Source: Alphaproteobacteria bacterium
GTDB taxonomy: Bacteria > Pseudomonadota > Alphaproteobacteria > CADEGL01
Direction: 5' to 3'
Length of the DNA stretch: 64,000 nt
Assembly: GCA_026400755.1 (NCBI GenBank)
Contig: JAPLOM010000030.1
Coordinates: 7,145 to 71,144 of the forward strand
Shown: piece by piece, positions 15,436-21,907 of the stretch
How positions within the stretch are numbered: position 1 is the first letter of the stretch
Layout of the letters: each line of letters opens with the position of its first letter
The notes under the pieces: model-generated
Told to the model about the DNA's origin: nothing
The model's input: the letters and a program-made list of their open reading frames with translations, nothing else
Databases searched by the model: none
Translations under genes and position numbers: made by a program

Positions 15436-15705
15436 TCCGTGTCCTTTCGCTATGAAGCCTGTCTTTTGAGGTAGGGCGCCTGGGGGCGTTTAGCCACCCC
15501 GGAGAGTGCGCATTCTGTGGGGTGGTACTTTGCCCTCCGATCCCGCGTCTCCCGCTCTCGATCTCAACAAAGGGTTAAAGCAGAGCAGCAGCCTTCGTGA
15601 TATGGCGGTGTACAGCTGCCTTCTGAGCTTAAACGTGGGTACCCTCTCAAATTTTTTGATAGAAATTCACTAACGACGGCTTCGATATGTAAGCGGGGGC
15701 GAAAC

Positions 15706-16518
15706 ATGTACATCGCGCCAGATGCTCGTAAGAACATTTTCTTTGTTGGATTCAACTCCAATGACGGCCAAAAGTGGGACGGAACAGGATTTCTTACAGG
15801 CACTCCTGCGGTCGATCCTGGTCAAGCATTTCATTACCTCGTAACCGCCAAGCACGTTATTGAACAGATCGCACGAGGCGCGGCCGACGGAAAAGTGCTC
15901 ATAAGAATCAATATGATTGACGGCACTGCGGAAACGTTCGAGACCCAATTAGATCAGTGGAAGTTTCACCCAGAAGACTCCTCAGTGGACGCTGCTGTAG
16001 CGCCAGTTGCCTTGGGTAACAGGATCGACCTTAAGGCCCTCCCTCTTGCGTTGATGCGTCATAACAACTTGCCCAGTTGGATTGAGCCCGGAACCGATAT
16101 TTTCTTTCCAGGCATGTTCTATCGCCATGTAGGCGCTACGCAGAATCAGGCGCTTGTTCGAACTGGTAGCGTCGCCGCGTTCCCCAAGGAAAGAATTTTC
16201 ATCGAGCACGGCGGTTCGATGGAGGCGTATTTGGTCGAAGCCCGCTCGATTGGCGGTTCGAGCGGCTCACCGGTATTTGCGCAGAGAGAAACTCCCACCG
16301 GACGATTCTCCCTCGACTTTGAGGTTTACTGGATCGGGCTTTTGTTGGGGCACTACAAATCTCCAGCACGGACTCGTCGTGAGGAGGCTGGGGATCTCTT
16401 TGAGGAAGCGTGGATTAACATGGGAATCGCAATTGTGGTTCCCGCGAAGAAAATATTGGAAATCATAGATGGCCCAGATTTTCGACCAGCGCGCCTAGCA
16501 GCAGGCGCTCCTACATGA
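15706..16518 (+). CDS. Cytosolic trypsin-like (S1/PA clan) serine protease
   Basis: Catalytic triad motifs LVTAKHV (His), VDAAV (Asp), IGGSSGSPVF (Ser); no signal peptide and no PDZ domain. Confidence 0.85.
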   Translation: MYIAPDARKNIFFVGFNSNDGQKWDGTGFLTGTPAVDPGQAFHYLVTAKHVIEQIARGAADGKVLIRINMIDGTAETFETQLDQWKFHPEDSSVDAAVAPVALGNRIDLKALPLALMRHNNLPSWIEPGTDIFFPGMFYRHVGATQNQALVRTGSVAAFPKERIFIEHGGSMEAYLVEARSIGGSSGSPVFAQRETPTGRFSLDFEVYWIGLLLGHYKSPARTRREEAGDLFEEAWINMGIAIVVPAKKILEIIDGPDFRPARLAAGAPT

Positions 16519-16519
16519 A

Positions 16520-17185
16520 ATGACGGCGAACTCCATACTTCCGGATGATGCATTAAAAGATGTCCTACGGATCATCGAGCGAAATGCTGCTCGTTTGTTG
16601 GCGGACGCTCGCCTCATGTTTGATGCAGCGCGCTACCCAACAGCCCTAGCACTATCGATTCTTTCTATGGAGGAGGCGGGAAAATACTATTTGGTCAAAT
16701 GGCAGAACACTCCCAAAAAATCTGGCCACGACGCCCCCGCAGCAAAAGGACGGCATGCTCATCGACAGAAGCAAAGCGTCGCTAGCACTTTCCACATCGC
16801 GGGATCAGTTAAGGCATTTCTTAGGGAGGACGTGGGCAGACGCCTAGGCCTCGAGGGGGCTGCTTCAGAGCAACAGGTGATGGCTTTCTTTCACGCGATG
16901 TCCTACCACCGCGATAAACCAGACTCAGAATTTAGGGCGTTGGCCGTGGAAACCGAAAGGGAGATCGAAGTGCTACTTGCAAAGGCGATAGCGTCTTCCA
17001 AAGGTGCGGCGTTACAGCAAAAGGCTTTCCAAGGCGAGATCGACAATCTCAAGCAGCGGGGTCTTTATGTAGATGTCAGCGCTGAGGGAAAAGTTGTTGC
17101 TGACCCCAATTCAATTACGAAGGACAATGCGAGTGAGTGGATCGACAACGCGAGTGTGTTAGTTAGCAAGCTCGGGAAACCCTAG
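16520..17185 (+). CDS. AbiV-family abortive infection protein (HEPN-like)
   Basis: NAARLLADARLMFDAARYPTALALSILSMEEAGK, HRQKQ and LKQRGLYVD match the AbiV family pattern (NA..L..DA..L....Y..A..L.....EE.GK / H..K / LYVD). Confidence 0.8.
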   Translation: MTANSILPDDALKDVLRIIERNAARLLADARLMFDAARYPTALALSILSMEEAGKYYLVKWQNTPKKSGHDAPAAKGRHAHRQKQSVASTFHIAGSVKAFLREDVGRRLGLEGAASEQQVMAFFHAMSYHRDKPDSEFRALAVETEREIEVLLAKAIASSKGAALQQKAFQGEIDNLKQRGLYVDVSAEGKVVADPNSITKDNASEWIDNASVLVSKLGKP

Positions 17186-17223
17186 CTAGTGAAGTCGTTC
17201 CCATCAGACTAATCGAGCGCGGT

Positions 17224-17267
17224 TGGCGACCCCAACGGGATTCGAACCCGTATCTTCATCTTGAAAG
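17224..17267 (-). tRNA. 3' half of tRNA-Glu(UUC), non-functional fragment (att-like remnant)
   Basis: Minus strand reads CTTTCAA GATGA AGAT ACGGG TTCGAAT CCCGT TGGGGTC G CCA: anticodon loop, variable loop, perfect T-arm, acceptor 3' strand and CCA. No matching 5' acceptor strand, D-arm or 5' anticodon stem upstream. Confidence 0.75.
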
Positions 17268-18514
17268 AGTGCGATCACTCAGTCCTGCGGTCGCCGGCTC
17301 GGTGGTGCCGCCGCCCTTGGCGCGCTGAAAGATCCCGAACGCGTTCTTCAGCGTGTGAAGGATGCCGCCCTGCCAGGCCATGCGGAAGACGCGCAGGCCC
17401 GGATAGCGCGGCGCGATCTGGCCCGCCAGGAACAGGCCGATCTGGCGGCCCCATATGCCCATCTTCTTGGATGTTTGGTGTGGCTGGGTGTCGTGCAGCA
17501 GGGCGAAGCTTTCGCCACCCTGGATCGTCAAGGCGCCTGCGCGCGCGGCCGCCTCGACCAGCGCCTTGCCGCGCGGGGTGCGCGCGAGCGCGCCGTCGAG
17601 CTCCACCGGCAGGTCGGCGATCCGCCGGGCCAGATGTCGTAGGCGATCACGTCGGCCTGCTCGCCCACGGGATCGACGCAGACCTTGCAGCGGAACTGCA
17701 GGAACCAGAACCGCTTGTCGGCCCACATGTCGTTGTAATTGGCGTTCAGCTCGCGTCCGTCCTTGGTCTCGAAGCGCGTCGGGCCGGGGCAGCCATGGCC
17801 GCGATAGCGCATCAGCTTCAATTCGCTCTCCTCAATGGGAAAGCGCCGCATCTGGCGCCAGGTCAGCTCCAGCTCCGATTCGCCGCCGCACGAGATCGAC
17901 AGCAGGTACTTCAGATGCTTCCCCACGCGCGGATCGTGCTTGGCCAGATTGCGCACGGCGGCGACGTCGCACGGCTTCGCGACCAGCGCGAAGGGCCGGC
18001 CCTTGGCCAGATGCGCGTCGAGGTGGAGCAGGGGTGCCACGGGCCCATAGCGCGAGCCCATGCCGTCCAGCACGCCCGCGCGGTCCACGCTCACATGCGG
18101 CACGTTGCGCAAGGGCGCGTCGTCCGGCGATCTCACGTGGGCGATGAAATCGACCTCTTTCGATTCGAGCAGATAGATCGCCAGCGCCGTCAGCACGCCG
18201 CCGGTCGCGGCCCGGAAGCGCACCTCGGGGTCGGCGGCCCAGCCGCGCCAGTGGCCTTGCGCGTAGCCGAAGGCCGTGTCGAGCGTGGCGCCCTCGCCGG
18301 CGGTCGCACGGTCCATGCCCTCGGTGTGGAGGCCGGGGCAGACACGGTTGATGAGTTTCAGCGTGGCGCGATCGGGTGGCGTCTTGGTGATGGGGCGCAG
18401 GCGGCCTTCCGGCGTCCAGCGCATCTCCACGCGGTCATGGCCGGCCAGGCTCGCGCACAGGCCGCAGCCGATGCACAGGCCATTCTTCACGATGGCGTCG
18501 AGCGAATGGACCAA
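17256..18514 (-). pseudogene. Coenzyme F420 hydrogenase/dehydrogenase beta-subunit (FrhB)-like Fe-S flavoprotein, frameshifted at about 17612
   Basis: CIGCGLC ferredoxin motif, FRAATGGVLT, GSRYGP, KPCD, CGG, RCKVCVDP. After DIWPGGSPT the sensible continuation (ELDGALARTPRG...) is in the frame of ORF 17256..17726. TTG start after GGGAGG. Confidence 0.75.
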
Positions 18515-18664
18515 GCCCCGTGTCCTCCCCAAGGCGGCCTGATCCTGCCATGCCGTGACGGACGCTTGGAATGGCCTATCGCCATCCGATTGCGCGCGTT
18601 GACTCGCCTGGACGCGCGGCCCGGGCACCGCGTATGGCTAATTCGGCATCAAGGCATGGGGGGC

Positions 18665-20818: not shown

Positions 20819-21907
20819 TCAATGCAGTTTGGTATCCGTGACCTTGTGCACGAACGCCGCCGTCTCCTCCGTCAGGCGCTCGCGCGCGGCAAGCAGCCCT
20901 CCGCCGATCAGCAGCATGACGTCCGTGCCGTAGAATTCCAGCATCTCCGGCACGCGGTCGACGGTCATGCCACCCGCCGGCACGGGCACGGCGGGCTTGA
21001 GCCCGTCCCAGGGATCGAGAGCCGCCCGGGCCAGGTCCTTGCAGGTTTGGGTCGAATAGCTGAAGCGTCCGCCATGATTGGGAAATACGCTCGCATCGGC
21101 GCCAAACAAGCGGAACAGCTTGCCGAGGAGCAGCGGCGGGGCGATCCGCGCAGCGCCGGCCAGGGCCGGATGGGCCATGAAGCCCATCGCCGGAAACTCC
21201 TTCACCAGCGTGTGGAAGGCGGGCAACCCCACCACCATCGGCGCGATCAGCACCGTGTCCAGCCCTTCGTCGCGCGCGAGCCGTACCTGCTTGCGAAGCT
21301 GGTCCAGATTGCCCGACAGGCTGGGCAGATAGCGGGTCTTGGTGCCCGCCGCGCGCACGGCCTTGGCGCAGGCCGCGACGCGCGCGGCGAAGGGGCTATA
21401 AGCCTGATCGGCCAGGCCGTGATCGTCCTTGATGAAATCGATCCCGCCTTGCGCCATGCGGCCGGCCAAGGCGCCCAGCGCCTCCGCCGGCAGCCCTTGC
21501 GGCTTCAGCGCCGAGCAGGTCATGGCGCGCTTCTCCGCCCCGCAGCGCGCGCGCAGGCCCGCGAGCCCCTGGTTGGGGCCGCCGAAGCCCGCGGCGACGT
21601 GGGATGGCACAAGCACATCTTGCAAGGTCACGTCGTCATGGATCGAGGTGTTGCCGAACAGCATGTTCATGAACTGGCCGACCTCGGGCCCGGTGGTCGC
21701 CGTGGCCAGGCCGATGCGAACTTCGAACGCACCATCCCCGGCCGGCGTGATGGCGTCGACCTGGCCGACGATATTGTCCAGCACATGCGAATCGTCGATG
21801 GCCGCGACCGGCATCTCGACGCTCTGCTCCACCGCGATGGTCTTGGCGCGGCTTTCGATGGCGGCGGCGTCGCTGCGGACGCGGTAGACGGCCGTGATTC
21901 TCGGCAT
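20819..21907 (-). CDS. rlpA: RuBisCO-like protein (form IV), R. rubrum-type methylthioribulose-1-phosphate isomerase
   Basis: 362 aa; EQSVEMP, NMLFGNTS, CSALKPQGL, GGIDFIKDDHG (KDDH), AHPALAG, FPNHGGRF, PVPAGGM. Confidence 0.9.
   Translation of the reverse strand: MPRITAVYRVRSDAAAIESRAKTIAVEQSVEMPVAAIDDSHVLDNIVGQVDAITPAGDGAFEVRIGLATATTGPEVGQFMNMLFGNTSIHDDVTLQDVLVPSHVAAGFGGPNQGLAGLRARCGAEKRAMTCSALKPQGLPAEALGALAGRMAQGGIDFIKDDHGLADQAYSPFAARVAACAKAVRAAGTKTRYLPSLSGNLDQLRKQVRLARDEGLDTVLIAPMVVGLPAFHTLVKEFPAMGFMAHPALAGAARIAPPLLLGKLFRLFGADASVFPNHGGRFSYSTQTCKDLARAALDPWDGLKPAVPVPAGGMTVDRVPEMLEFYGTDVMLLIGGGLLAARERLTEETAAFVHKVTDTKLH

What the first reader, a model, noticed from the sequence alone, without database searches (positions are those of the whole stretch)
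15706..17185. Candidate undescribed anti-phage module: cytosolic trypsin-like protease coupled to an AbiV/HEPN-like effector
Seen in sequence: two co-oriented genes separated by 1 nt (TGA-A-ATG, 16516-16522), in an AT-richer islet ending at a tRNA-derived att remnant. The first has an intact His/Asp/Ser triad but no signal peptide or PDZ domain. The second carries the AbiV-family motifs (EE.GK, H..K, LYVD) with a helical insert between them. Established: lactococcal AbiV is an abortive-infection protein that shuts down translation, it is grouped with HEPN domains, and cytosolic trypsin-like proteases act as activators or effectors in several bacterial conflict systems. Inference: the protease may sense a phage component and cleave or activate the AbiV protein, or act as its antidote or a second effector. 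I do not know of a named system with this two-gene architecture.
Basis: partly seen in the sequence, partly recalled or inferred. Interest (0 to 1): 0.85.

Follow-up and report, generated by a model that had tools for sequence, protein, structure and literature searches.

The report
Protease and AbiV genes, one-off pair
A small foreign DNA islet carries a cytosolic serine-protease gene and an AbiV-type abortive-infection gene one base apart, but this pairing is found nowhere else, so it is most likely two stand-alone defence-type genes that travelled together, not a new two-gene immune system.

Summary
Window 15706-16518 encodes a 270-aa cytosolic chymotrypsin-fold serine protease with an invariant His50/Asp95/Ser186 triad. 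It resembles the PADLOC candidate PDC-S45. Window 16520-17185 encodes a 221-aa AbiV-family HEPN protein that scores above the Pfam and NCBIfam cut-offs. Its model's best structural matches are the Lactococcus AbiV crystal structures. The genes are separated by TGA-A-ATG and have the same foreign composition (GC3 about 0.54 against 0.80-0.88 in flanking genes). They end at a tRNA 3' fragment.

None of 80 genome loci or 5 viral loci with protease homologues has an AbiV. None of the AbiV-relative loci examined has this protease. The closest homologues of each gene stand alone. No protease-AbiV fusion appeared among the 120 and 150 closest AbiV relatives listed.

The best reading is a co-transferred, co-transcribed mini defence islet of two single-gene-type modules. 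Real coupling is not excluded (about 0.2), because this AbiV has the protease gene where lactococcal AbiV has its essential upstream abiV2 RNA element.

As a side finding, the wider protease family is a passenger gene of about 2-kb IS1595-type elements.

The parts
15450..17262 (.). Low-GC islet of about 1.8 kb inserted among housekeeping genes. The flanks are ABC-F, GreA-like and VOC genes on the left and an FrhB/FdhB-like gene on the right.
   Evidence: GC is 0.49-0.55 inside against 0.60-0.72 outside. GC3 is 0.535-0.55 inside against 0.80-0.88 in flanking genes.
15436..15705 (+). Upstream intergenic region, presumed to hold the promoter for the cassette. It contains a 16+16 nt palindrome at 15494-15525 and a G-rich stretch (GCGGGGGCG, about 15692-15700) 5-13 nt before the protease ATG that could serve as a ribosome-binding site.
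   Evidence: Sequence; inverted repeat I6. The consensus scan found no sigma-70-type promoter.
15706..16518 (+). Cytosolic chymotrypsin-fold (PA clan) serine protease of 270 aa. It is PDC-S45-like and resembles the LmuA protease N-terminus. The triad is H50 (15853-15855), D95 (15988-15990) and S186 (16261-16263).
16516..16522 (+). Gene junction TGA-A-ATG. The gap is 1 nt, with no Shine-Dalgarno-like sequence and no terminator or promoter between the genes. This implies co-transcription and probably termination-reinitiation coupling (inferred).
16520..17185 (+). AbiV-family HEPN protein of 221 aa. It has EEAGK (16670-16684), the alternative conserved His H81 (16760-16762), LYVD (17063-17074) and a helical insert at about residues 95-165.
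17224..17292 (-). tRNA 3' fragment. The T-arm (ACGGG-TTCGAAT-CCCGT), acceptor 3' strand, discriminator and CCA are good. The 5' half is degenerate. It is probably a relic of a tRNA-targeting integration site.

Best explanation
This is a roughly 1.8-kb horizontally acquired cassette in a Reyranella-like alphaproteobacterium, next to a decayed tRNA-type integration scar. It carries two defence-type genes of the stand-alone kind, transcribed as one operon.

Gene 1 is a cytosolic PA-clan serine protease of the PDC-S45 / LmuA-protease type. It has an intact Ser-His-Asp triad and is inferred to be an autonomous proteolytic effector or sensor-effector.

Gene 2 is an AbiV-family HEPN protein. By homology with Lactococcus AbiV it is inferred to be a dimeric RNase that attacks ribosomal RNA and shuts down translation in infected cells (abortive infection).

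Shown here: the folds and families, the foreign composition, the 1-nt junction, and the independence of the two families elsewhere. Inferred: catalytic activities, an anti-phage role, and that each protein acts on its own, so the tight linkage reflects co-transfer and co-expression and not an obligate partnership.
For: The two genes have identical foreign GC and GC3.

Each family occurs without the other:
- 0 of 80 genome loci and 0 of 5 viral loci of protease homologues contain an AbiV, tested with a 7-sequence and a 122-sequence AbiV HMM.
- 0 of 27 AbiV-relative loci contain the protease. Three further AbiV contexts also lack it: one next to an integrase, one after a DEAD-box helicase gene, and one solo.
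- The closest protease homologue, P0002 (53% identity), is followed directly by a housekeeping-like gene. P0005 is followed by a convergent gene. P0003 is followed by a 37-aa ORF.
- The closest AbiV homologues (L082, L088, L098) have no protease C-terminus upstream.

The immediate downstream neighbours of 71 of the protease homologue loci (the 71 with a qualifying ORF) are heterogeneous: IS1595 transposases, housekeeping genes, Cas1, DUF4238 and TIR.

All 120 AbiV hits are single-domain. All 150 best representatives are 296 aa or shorter.

Anantharaman et al. 2013 (PMC3710099) list no conserved genomic context for AbiV. PDC-S45 is a single-gene candidate in PADLOC.
Against: The 1-nt spacing without a ribosome-binding site suggests translational coupling, which is more typical of partners than of unrelated genes.

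Lactococcal AbiV is toxic alone and needs the element immediately upstream (abiV2 RNA). Here that position is occupied by the protease gene. Solo relatives keep about 150-490 nt of non-coding DNA upstream.

Both subfamilies are rare. The nearest non-self relatives are 53% identical (protease) and 40% identical (AbiV), so absence of the pair in databases is limited evidence.

One nearer protease relative (P0007, 43%) is followed by an AbiJ_NTD4 protein, and AbiJ is another HEPN Abi family.

No experiment shows a defence function for PDC-S45 or for this protease family.
Confidence: 0.55

Rival explanations
1. This is a genuine two-component system. The protease and AbiV are made in fixed ratio from one coupled message and act together. 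Either the protease keeps the HEPN RNase in check, as a proteolytic antitoxin replacing the abiV2 RNA of Lactococcus, or it senses a phage product and cleaves AbiV to activate it.
For: The junction is TGA-A-ATG with no ribosome-binding site. The two genes have identical foreign composition, so they arrived as a unit. The pair is kept intact in every contig of this population that reaches far enough. Lactococcal AbiV needs an upstream-encoded inhibitor, and that slot is filled here by the protease gene. Enzymatic antitoxins of HEPN toxins are known (MNT/HepT; own knowledge). The P0007 protease relative precedes an AbiJ_NTD4 protein.
Against: No recurrence was found in either direction, and there are no fusions. 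The helical insert proposed as a possible cleavage target is also present in solo AbiV relatives such as P0122 and in the full-length matches. Close relatives of both genes live alone.
Confidence: 0.22
2. The cassette is a selfish or decaying remnant without a current anti-phage role. It would be the last cargo of a degraded integrative element, possibly kept by toxin-type addiction from the AbiV RNase, or drifting towards loss.
For: Only a tRNA 3' fragment remains, with no integrase, no intact tRNA and no second att repeat. A 99.7%-identical relative carries G181V in the otherwise invariant GLYVD motif of AbiV, while the protease is unchanged. No sigma-70-type promoter was detected.
Against: Both ORFs are intact, with all family-invariant residues in the window copy. 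The islet is fixed in every contig of this population that extends into it (contigs from seven samples carry the identical flanking VOC gene).
Confidence: 0.13
3. The protease is primarily a mobile-element gene whose function serves the element, for example host manipulation or element maintenance. It is unrelated to phage defence, and its adjacency to AbiV is accidental.
For: In 20 of 80 homologue loci an IS1595-family transposase lies nearby on the opposite strand in 19, directly adjacent in about half. Conserved 24-28 nt terminal inverted repeats bracket protease plus transposase in 12 of the 85 genome and viral loci, across phyla.
Against: The window copy and its closest clade have no transposase and no such inverted repeat. 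All 36 family members match the defence-candidate model PDC-S45, and 29 match the Lamassu LmuA N-terminus.
Confidence: 0.1

Closest known systems
Lactococcus cremoris AbiV (abiV1/abiV2; PDB 9bj5, 9bj6, 9bj7; Haaber 2008-2010; Zhu et al. 2024 bioRxiv 10.1101/2024.05.05.592566)
   Same: Both belong to the same Pfam and NCBIfam family. Both have the HEPN helical-bundle fold, the EE.GK dimer-interface motif, the alternative conserved His (H93 in Lactococcus, H81 here) and the (L)Y.D motif. Both are single-domain proteins of about 200 aa.
   Different: Identity is only about 13-15% in structural alignment. This protein has an extra helical insert of about 50 residues. Lactococcal R91 and H97, assigned as the Rx4-6H motif, correspond to H79 and Q85 here. 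There is no upstream non-coding abiV2-like element, because a protease gene abuts the start codon.
PADLOC phage-defence candidate PDC-S45 (single gene, untested)
   Same: The HMM match is nearly full length (profile positions 30-279 of 293). All 36 family members match it. It is a stand-alone cytosolic protease gene found in mobile or foreign contexts.
   Different: The match is weak (48 bits, 1.8e-13; best in family 5.7e-24) compared with a bona fide member reported at 4e-94. This looks like a sister family and not PDC-S45 proper. No function has been demonstrated for either.
Lamassu LmuA protease-type effectors
   Same: The N-terminal half of the protease resembles the LmuA model PDLC03855. 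29 of 36 homologues match it, the best at 2.8e-9. This shows that the protease type is used as a defence effector.
   Different: The match is partial (profile positions 16-92 of 425). No LmuB/SMC partner is present, since the flanking genes are housekeeping.
HEPN-MNT (HepT/MntA) and type III toxin-antitoxin modules
   Same: In these modules a HEPN RNase toxin is encoded directly next to, and co-expressed with, its neutraliser. That is the logic that would apply if the protease controls AbiV.
   Different: The neighbour here is a protease, not a nucleotidyltransferase. There is no repeat-RNA antitoxin upstream in the window. The upstream gene has homologues that live alone.
IS1595-family insertion sequences with passenger genes
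   Same: Homologues of the protease at 33-40% identity sit between conserved terminal inverted repeats together with an IS1595 DDE transposase.
   Different: The window copy and its nearest clade lack both the transposase and the inverted repeats.

Membership tests
AbiV family (Pfam PF18728 HEPN_AbiV / NCBIfam TIGR04498) | Profile score above the curated cut-off | tested here: met
   PF18728 scores 79.6 bits against a 27.1-bit cut-off. TIGR04498 scores 72.8 against 27.
AbiV family (Pfam PF18728 HEPN_AbiV / NCBIfam TIGR04498) | HEPN helical-bundle fold resembling solved AbiV | tested here: met
   The model has pLDDT 75. The 25 best Foldseek PDB hits include 24 chains of 9bj5, 9bj6 and 9bj7 and one HEPN protein (2hsb), all at probability 1.0, with TM normalised to the target of 0.5-0.64 and E about 1e-2. 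The subfamily profile hits 9bj5 and 9bj7 at 1e-9.
AbiV family (Pfam PF18728 HEPN_AbiV / NCBIfam TIGR04498) | Family motifs: EE.GK, the alternative conserved His between helices 2 and 3, and (L)Y.D | tested here: met
   E51, E52, G54, K55, Y183 and D185 are invariant, and H81 is conserved in 6 of 7 sequences. The alternative His is described for AbiV by Anantharaman 2013.
AbiV family (Pfam PF18728 HEPN_AbiV / NCBIfam TIGR04498) | Canonical HEPN Rx4-6H motif (R91/H97 in L. cremoris AbiV, needed for RNase activity) | tested here: not met
   There is no R-x(4-6)-H anywhere in the protein. R91 maps to H79 and H97 maps to Q85. This motif is not family-defining: Anantharaman 2013 lists AbiV as lacking it, and Zhu 2024 notes it is not conserved.
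AbiV family (Pfam PF18728 HEPN_AbiV / NCBIfam TIGR04498) | Upstream abiV2-like RNA inhibitor (the two-component organisation of the lactococcal system) | tested here: not met
   The protease coding sequence ends 1 nt before the start codon. There are no tandem repeats. The last 146 nt of the protease gene fold no better than chance, with z = -1.7.
AbiV family (Pfam PF18728 HEPN_AbiV / NCBIfam TIGR04498) | RNase activity and abortive-infection phenotype | not testable with these tools
   This needs expression, RNase assays and phage plating.
PA-clan (S1 / Trypsin_2) serine protease | Pfam PF13365 score above the gathering cut-off | tested here: not met
   It scores 23.8 bits against a 27.6-bit cut-off, E = 8e-5, covering profile positions 1-138 of 144.
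PA-clan (S1 / Trypsin_2) serine protease | Double beta-barrel chymotrypsin fold | tested here: met
   The model has pLDDT 86 and pTM 0.85. It gives 433 PDB matches at E <= 1e-3, led by DegS, Deg5 and HtrA, 3C proteases and trypsins.
PA-clan (S1 / Trypsin_2) serine protease | Catalytic His/Asp/Ser in canonical order, with Ser in a G-x-S-G-x-P motif | tested here: met
   H50, D95 and S186 (GGSSGSP) are invariant in 36 homologues. The triad geometry in the model was not inspected.
PADLOC PDC-S45 (single-gene defence candidate) | Match to the PDC-S45 HMM over most of its length | tested here: inconclusive
   The match is 1.8e-13 (48 bits) over profile positions 30-279 of 293, and all 36 homologues match. 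It is much weaker than a reported true member at 4e-94. PADLOC itself could not be run.
PADLOC PDC-S45 (single-gene defence candidate) | Demonstrated anti-phage activity | not testable with these tools
   It is a candidate only. The single paper found (PMC12429752) merely lists it.
Proposed new two-gene protease + AbiV/HEPN system | Conserved synteny of the pair across unrelated genomes | tested here: not met
   0 of 80 genome and 0 of 5 viral protease loci have an AbiV. 0 of 27 plus 3 further AbiV loci have the protease. The nearest homologues are solo.
Proposed new two-gene protease + AbiV/HEPN system | Domain fusions linking the two families | tested here: not met
   All 120 AbiV hits carry PF18728 only and are 177-279 aa long. 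The best 150 of 399 representatives are 296 aa or shorter.
Proposed new two-gene protease + AbiV/HEPN system | Operon organisation in this locus | tested here: met
   The genes are on the same strand with a 1-nt gap and no terminator or promoter between them, and they have identical GC3.
Lamassu (LmuA protease effector + LmuB SMC) | An adjacent LmuB/SMC-family partner | tested here: not met
   The neighbours are ABC-F, GreA-like, VOC and FrhB/FdhB genes. The LmuA match covers only positions 16-92 of 425.

The most novel reading that the evidence does not exclude
The protease is the protein-level controller of this AbiV RNase. Being co-translated from a coupled message, it either continuously neutralises the toxin, as a proteolytic antitoxin replacing the abiV2 RNA of Lactococcus, or it licenses the toxin by cleavage when a phage product is sensed. 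That would be a protease-gated HEPN abortive-infection module not described so far, seen here in a single lineage.
Probability: 0.2. Interest if true: 0.7.

Novelty: new member of a known kind. Interest (0 to 1): 0.3.

Why it matters
If the two genes are independent, this is an ordinary mini defence islet, and DefenseFinder or PADLOC would probably flag both parts.

It has two modest points of value. First, it documents a divergent AbiV subfamily that has a helical insert and no room for an abiV2-like element, which raises the question of how its presumed toxicity is restrained. Second, it draws attention to an uncharacterised, widespread family of cytosolic serine proteases. That family has about 1,700 database relatives, resembles PDC-S45 and LmuA, and in many lineages rides as a passenger gene inside IS1595-type elements.

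If the pair is truly coupled, it would add a protease-controlled HEPN RNase to the known ways of regulating abortive infection.

Tried and rejected
- att site: I looked for a second att copy or direct repeats flanking the islet and found none above chance.
- Expression signals: the sigma-70 promoter scan found none. The terminator-like hits lie inside coding sequence and are within about two standard deviations of the shuffle expectation.
- Empty site: every contig encoding the identical flanking VOC protein that extends far enough carries the islet. Another Reyranella genome is not syntenic at this gene.
- Phages and plasmids: the protease has no tblastn match in either. AbiV matches only a distant Sinorhizobium plasmid copy that follows a DEAD-box helicase gene. 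There are no AbiV relatives in viral contigs.
- PDB by sequence: neither the AbiV protein nor the protease profile gave a significant hit. Only the AbiV subfamily profile reached the AbiV crystal structures.
- RNA antitoxin hidden in the 3' end of the protease gene: the fold is no better than shuffles (z = -1.7 and -0.15), and there are no tandem repeats.
- IS1595 inverted repeats in the window: absent.
- Second passenger ORFs in the larger IS1595-protease elements: these are heterogeneous, with no HEPN domain.
- Upstream and downstream neighbours of AbiV relatives: these include a NucS-like nuclease, an HTH protein, PagL, DUF1889 and unknowns, but no protease.
- Literature: I found no paper describing a protease-plus-AbiV pair.
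Full report
**1. What is there**

The window holds two co-oriented ORFs, at 15706-16518 (270 aa) and 16520-17185 (221 aa). They are separated by a single base, TGA-A-ATG. They lie in a stretch of GC about 0.52 (roughly 15450-17250), while the window as a whole is about 0.65.

Third-position GC is 0.535 for the first gene and 0.55 for the second. The flanking genes have GC3 of 0.80-0.88. The two genes are therefore foreign and arrived with the same composition.

Immediately downstream, on the minus strand at about 17224-17262, lies a good tRNA T-arm, acceptor 3' strand and CCA. The 5' half is degenerate. The Rfam tRNA score is 22 bits against a 29-bit threshold, and ARAGORN finds no tRNA in the whole window. 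No second copy of this sequence and no flanking direct repeat was found.

The flanks are housekeeping genes: ABC-F, GreA-like and a VOC / 3-dmu-9_3-mt gene on the left, and an FrhB/FdhB-like gene on the right. Cluster mates of the VOC protein are named Reyranella sp., so the host is probably a Reyranella-like alphaproteobacterium.

**2. The first gene**

- Pfam Trypsin_2 matches profile positions 1-138 of 144 but scores 23.8 bits, below the 27.6-bit cut-off.
- The PADLOC candidate model PDC-S45 matches nearly full length at 1.8e-13. The Lamassu LmuA model matches weakly at its N-terminus.
- All 36 aligned homologues match PDC-S45 (best 5.7e-24), and 29 match LmuA (best 2.8e-9).
- H50, D95 and S186 (in GGSSGSP) are invariant in the alignment.
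- The AlphaFold model is confident (pLDDT 86, pTM 0.85). Its best PDB matches are the DegS, Deg5 and HtrA protease domains, picornaviral 3C proteases and trypsins, all at probability 1.0.
- There is no hydrophobic N-terminus and no space for a PDZ domain.

The family is large, with 1,668 database proteins at E <= 1e-3. It is absent from the phage and plasmid collections searched and rare in viral contigs, where 5 loci were found.

**3. The second gene**

- HEPN_AbiV scores 79.6 bits (cut-off 27.1) and TIGR04498 scores 72.8 (cut-off 27). PADLOC AbiV matches at 6e-8.
- The motifs EEAGK (residues 51-55), H81-R-Q-K84 and LYVD (182-185) are present and conserved among relatives.
- About 50 extra helical residues sit between the last two motifs.
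- The model (pLDDT 75) retrieves the Lactococcus AbiV crystal structures 9bj5, 9bj6 and 9bj7: 24 of its 25 best PDB matches are chains of these entries and one is another HEPN protein, 2hsb.
- A profile of the subfamily hits those chains at 1e-9.
- The canonical HEPN Rx4-6H motif is absent. Lactococcal R91 and H97 map to H79 and Q85. This is typical of the family. Anantharaman et al. 2013 list AbiV as lacking the motif and having an alternative conserved His, which is H81 here. Zhu et al. 2024 say the same of more than 100 family members.
- The start codon at 16520 is the real one. Homologues align from about residue 12, and the first HEPN helix (N22...L26...D29-A30) lies upstream of the M33 that a gene caller chose for the 189-aa version.

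**4. Is the pair a system?**

(a) I fetched 80 genome loci of protease homologues (33-40% identity) from many phyla, with 5-kb flanks. Neither a 7-sequence nor a 122-sequence AbiV HMM finds an AbiV ORF in any of them, or in the 5 viral loci. The only hit is L001, a 99.7%-identical contig of the same locus.

(b) The nearest protease relatives (48-53% identity) are informative in three cases, and none has an AbiV.
- P0002 is followed after about 130 nt by a GC-rich housekeeping-like gene.
- P0005 is followed by a convergent gene.
- P0003 is followed by a 37-aa ORF.

(c) From the AbiV side, 27 loci were fetched: 4 from look-ups of the nearest relatives and 23 from the metagenome scan. A protease HMM finds nothing in them. 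The closest relatives (L082, L088, L098 at 30-37% identity) have 250-525 nt of upstream sequence, which would show a protease C-terminus if one were there. Three further contexts also lack a protease. P0123 sits beside a phage-type integrase. P0126 is solo. The Sinorhizobium plasmid copy follows a DEAD-box helicase gene.

(d) No fusions exist. All 120 AbiV hits carry PF18728 only and are 177-279 aa long. In an exhaustive HMMER search, 399 representatives reach E <= 1e-3, and the best 150 are all 296 aa or shorter.

(e) I took the largest ORF next to the 3' end of the protease gene in each of the 71 loci that have one. These neighbours are heterogeneous. They include IS1595 transposases, DNA ligase, OTCase, PlsY, SpoU, dUTPase, Cas1 (two loci), DUF4238 (two), TIR (one) and DUF559.

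(f) The neighbours of AbiV relatives are equally heterogeneous and include no protease.

(g) I found no paper describing such a pair.

**5. What argues for coupling all the same**

- The 1-nt junction without a Shine-Dalgarno sequence suggests termination-reinitiation. That would tie AbiV synthesis to translation of the protease (inference).
- The two genes share composition, so they came as a unit.
- The pair is intact in every contig of this population that reaches far enough.
- In Lactococcus, abiV1 alone is toxic and hard to clone, and it confers no resistance. It needs the roughly 170-bp element immediately upstream (abiV2), which acts as an inhibitory RNA. Solo AbiV relatives keep about 150-490 nt of non-coding DNA upstream. 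In the window that slot is the protease gene.
- I tested whether the 3' end of the protease gene might hide a structured or repeated RNA. It folds no better than shuffles (z = -1.7) and has no tandem repeats.
- One nearer protease relative (P0007, 43%) is followed by an AbiJ_NTD4 protein, and AbiJ is another HEPN Abi family.
- Both subfamilies are rare, with nearest non-self relatives at 53% and 40% identity, so the negative synteny evidence has limited power.

**6. Verdict on mechanism**

Most likely (about 0.55), this is a co-transferred, co-transcribed mini defence islet left at a decayed tRNA-type integration site. It contains two modules of the single-gene type.
- One is a PDC-S45 / LmuA-like cytosolic serine protease, inferred to be an autonomous proteolytic effector. 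Its function is untested for the whole family.
- The other is an AbiV-family HEPN protein, inferred by homology to be a dimeric RNase that attacks rRNA and stops translation in infected cells.

Rivals are:
- a truly coupled protease-gated AbiV (about 0.22);
- a selfish or decaying remnant without a present defence role (about 0.13);
- a mobile-element protease unrelated to defence that lies next to AbiV by accident (about 0.10).

**7. Comparison with known systems and novelty**

The AbiV gene is a divergent but clear member of the AbiV family. The protease is a sister of the PADLOC candidate PDC-S45, not a clear member. The pair does not meet the criteria for Lamassu (no LmuB), for HEPN-MNT (no MNT), or for a type III toxin-antitoxin module (no repeat RNA). 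Nor does it meet the criteria for a new conserved two-gene system, since there is no synteny and there are no fusions.

I file it as a new member of a known kind and give it an interest of about 0.3. The residual novel reading is a protease in the place of the abiV2 antitoxin. It is worth a simple cloning test.

**8. Side finding**

In 20 of the 80 homologue loci an IS1595-family transposase (DDE_Tnp_IS1595 plus Zn_ribbon_IS1595) lies within about 2 kb of the protease gene. It is on the opposite strand and downstream in 19 of them, and directly adjacent in about half.

Conserved 24-28 nt terminal inverted repeats (GGnACTTATCCCTTGACAGTAGGTA) bracket protease plus transposase about 1.95-3.3 kb apart. 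I found both repeats in 12 of the 85 genome and viral loci, from Saccharibacteria, Gammaproteobacteria, Dehalococcoidia, Acidobacteria and one viral contig.

The wider protease family is therefore a passenger gene of an IS1595-type element. The "N-terminal extensions" of many database homologues (...GDYPLTVG...) are translations of the left inverted repeat. The window copy and its closest clade lack both the transposase and the repeats.

Noticed in passing
L007:4902-6866, L025:4904-6948, L029:4888-6815, L049:4898-6871; also L039, L052, L066, L068, L076, L078, L122: Homologues of the protease (33-40% identity) sit with a convergent IS1595-family transposase between conserved 24-28 nt terminal inverted repeats (GGnACTTATCCCTTGACAGTAGGTA). 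The repeats are 1.95-3.3 kb apart, and the loci come from several phyla and one viral contig. The family is a passenger gene of an IS1595-type element. The larger elements carry an extra, heterogeneous ORF between protease and transposase.
   Followed up: partly
Alignment A1 (e.g. P0016, P0063, P0011); L007:4887-5000: The 25-40 residue N-terminal extensions of many database homologues (...GDYPLTVG...LGG.PRYY...) are translations of the IS left inverted repeat and the sequence after it. They are probably start-codon mis-annotations. The conserved Met aligns with M1 of the window protein.
   Followed up: partly
window 17061 (AbiV codon 181) vs L001: A 99.7%-identical metagenome contig of the same locus has G181V in the otherwise invariant G-L-Y-V-D motif of AbiV. 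Its two other AbiV differences are synonymous, and its protease gene is identical. This may be an inactivating variant of a toxic gene.
   Followed up: no
L098:332-409: A 38-nt unit repeated 2.1 times (90% match) lies immediately upstream of an AbiV relative that is 30% identical to the window protein. This is reminiscent of the repeat-RNA antitoxins of type III toxin-antitoxin systems. It was the only such case among the 27 AbiV loci scanned.
   Followed up: partly
window 17587-17611: A cluster of substitutions and five single-base indels separates the window from L001 inside the FrhB/FdhB-like gene. In the window the gene reads as two overlapping ORFs (17256-17726 and 17528-18628, minus strand), while L001 has one 420-aa gene. 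This is either a frameshift or an assembly difference. In L001 the gene's stop (window 17256-17258) lies inside the tRNA fragment.
   Followed up: no
contig of P0007 (no DNA held); L011:5882-6646; L016:5895-6728: Some protease homologues are followed at 32-111 nt by co-oriented defence-type genes: an AbiJ_NTD4 protein (P0007 contig), a TIR/ThsB-like protein (L011) and DUF4238 (L016 and one more locus). These are singletons or doubletons, compatible with defence-island clustering.
   Followed up: partly
window 15494-15525: A 16+16 nt palindrome (CCACCCCGGAGAGTGC / GCATTCTGTGGGGTGG, 81% complementary) lies at the left edge of the low-GC islet, between the divergent VOC gene and the protease gene. 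Its role is unknown.
   Followed up: no
L083:756-3808 (also L084, L085): An AbiV relative (P0124) lies in a defence-island-like context, downstream of genes with PRTase-CE and ORC-CDC6-like domains and a methyltransferase, and upstream of a DUF1889 protein.
   Followed up: no
window 20819-21907 (-): A RuBisCO-like large-chain homologue of 362 aa lies about 3.6 kb to the right of the islet. It is ordinary host context and unrelated to the finding.
   Followed up: no
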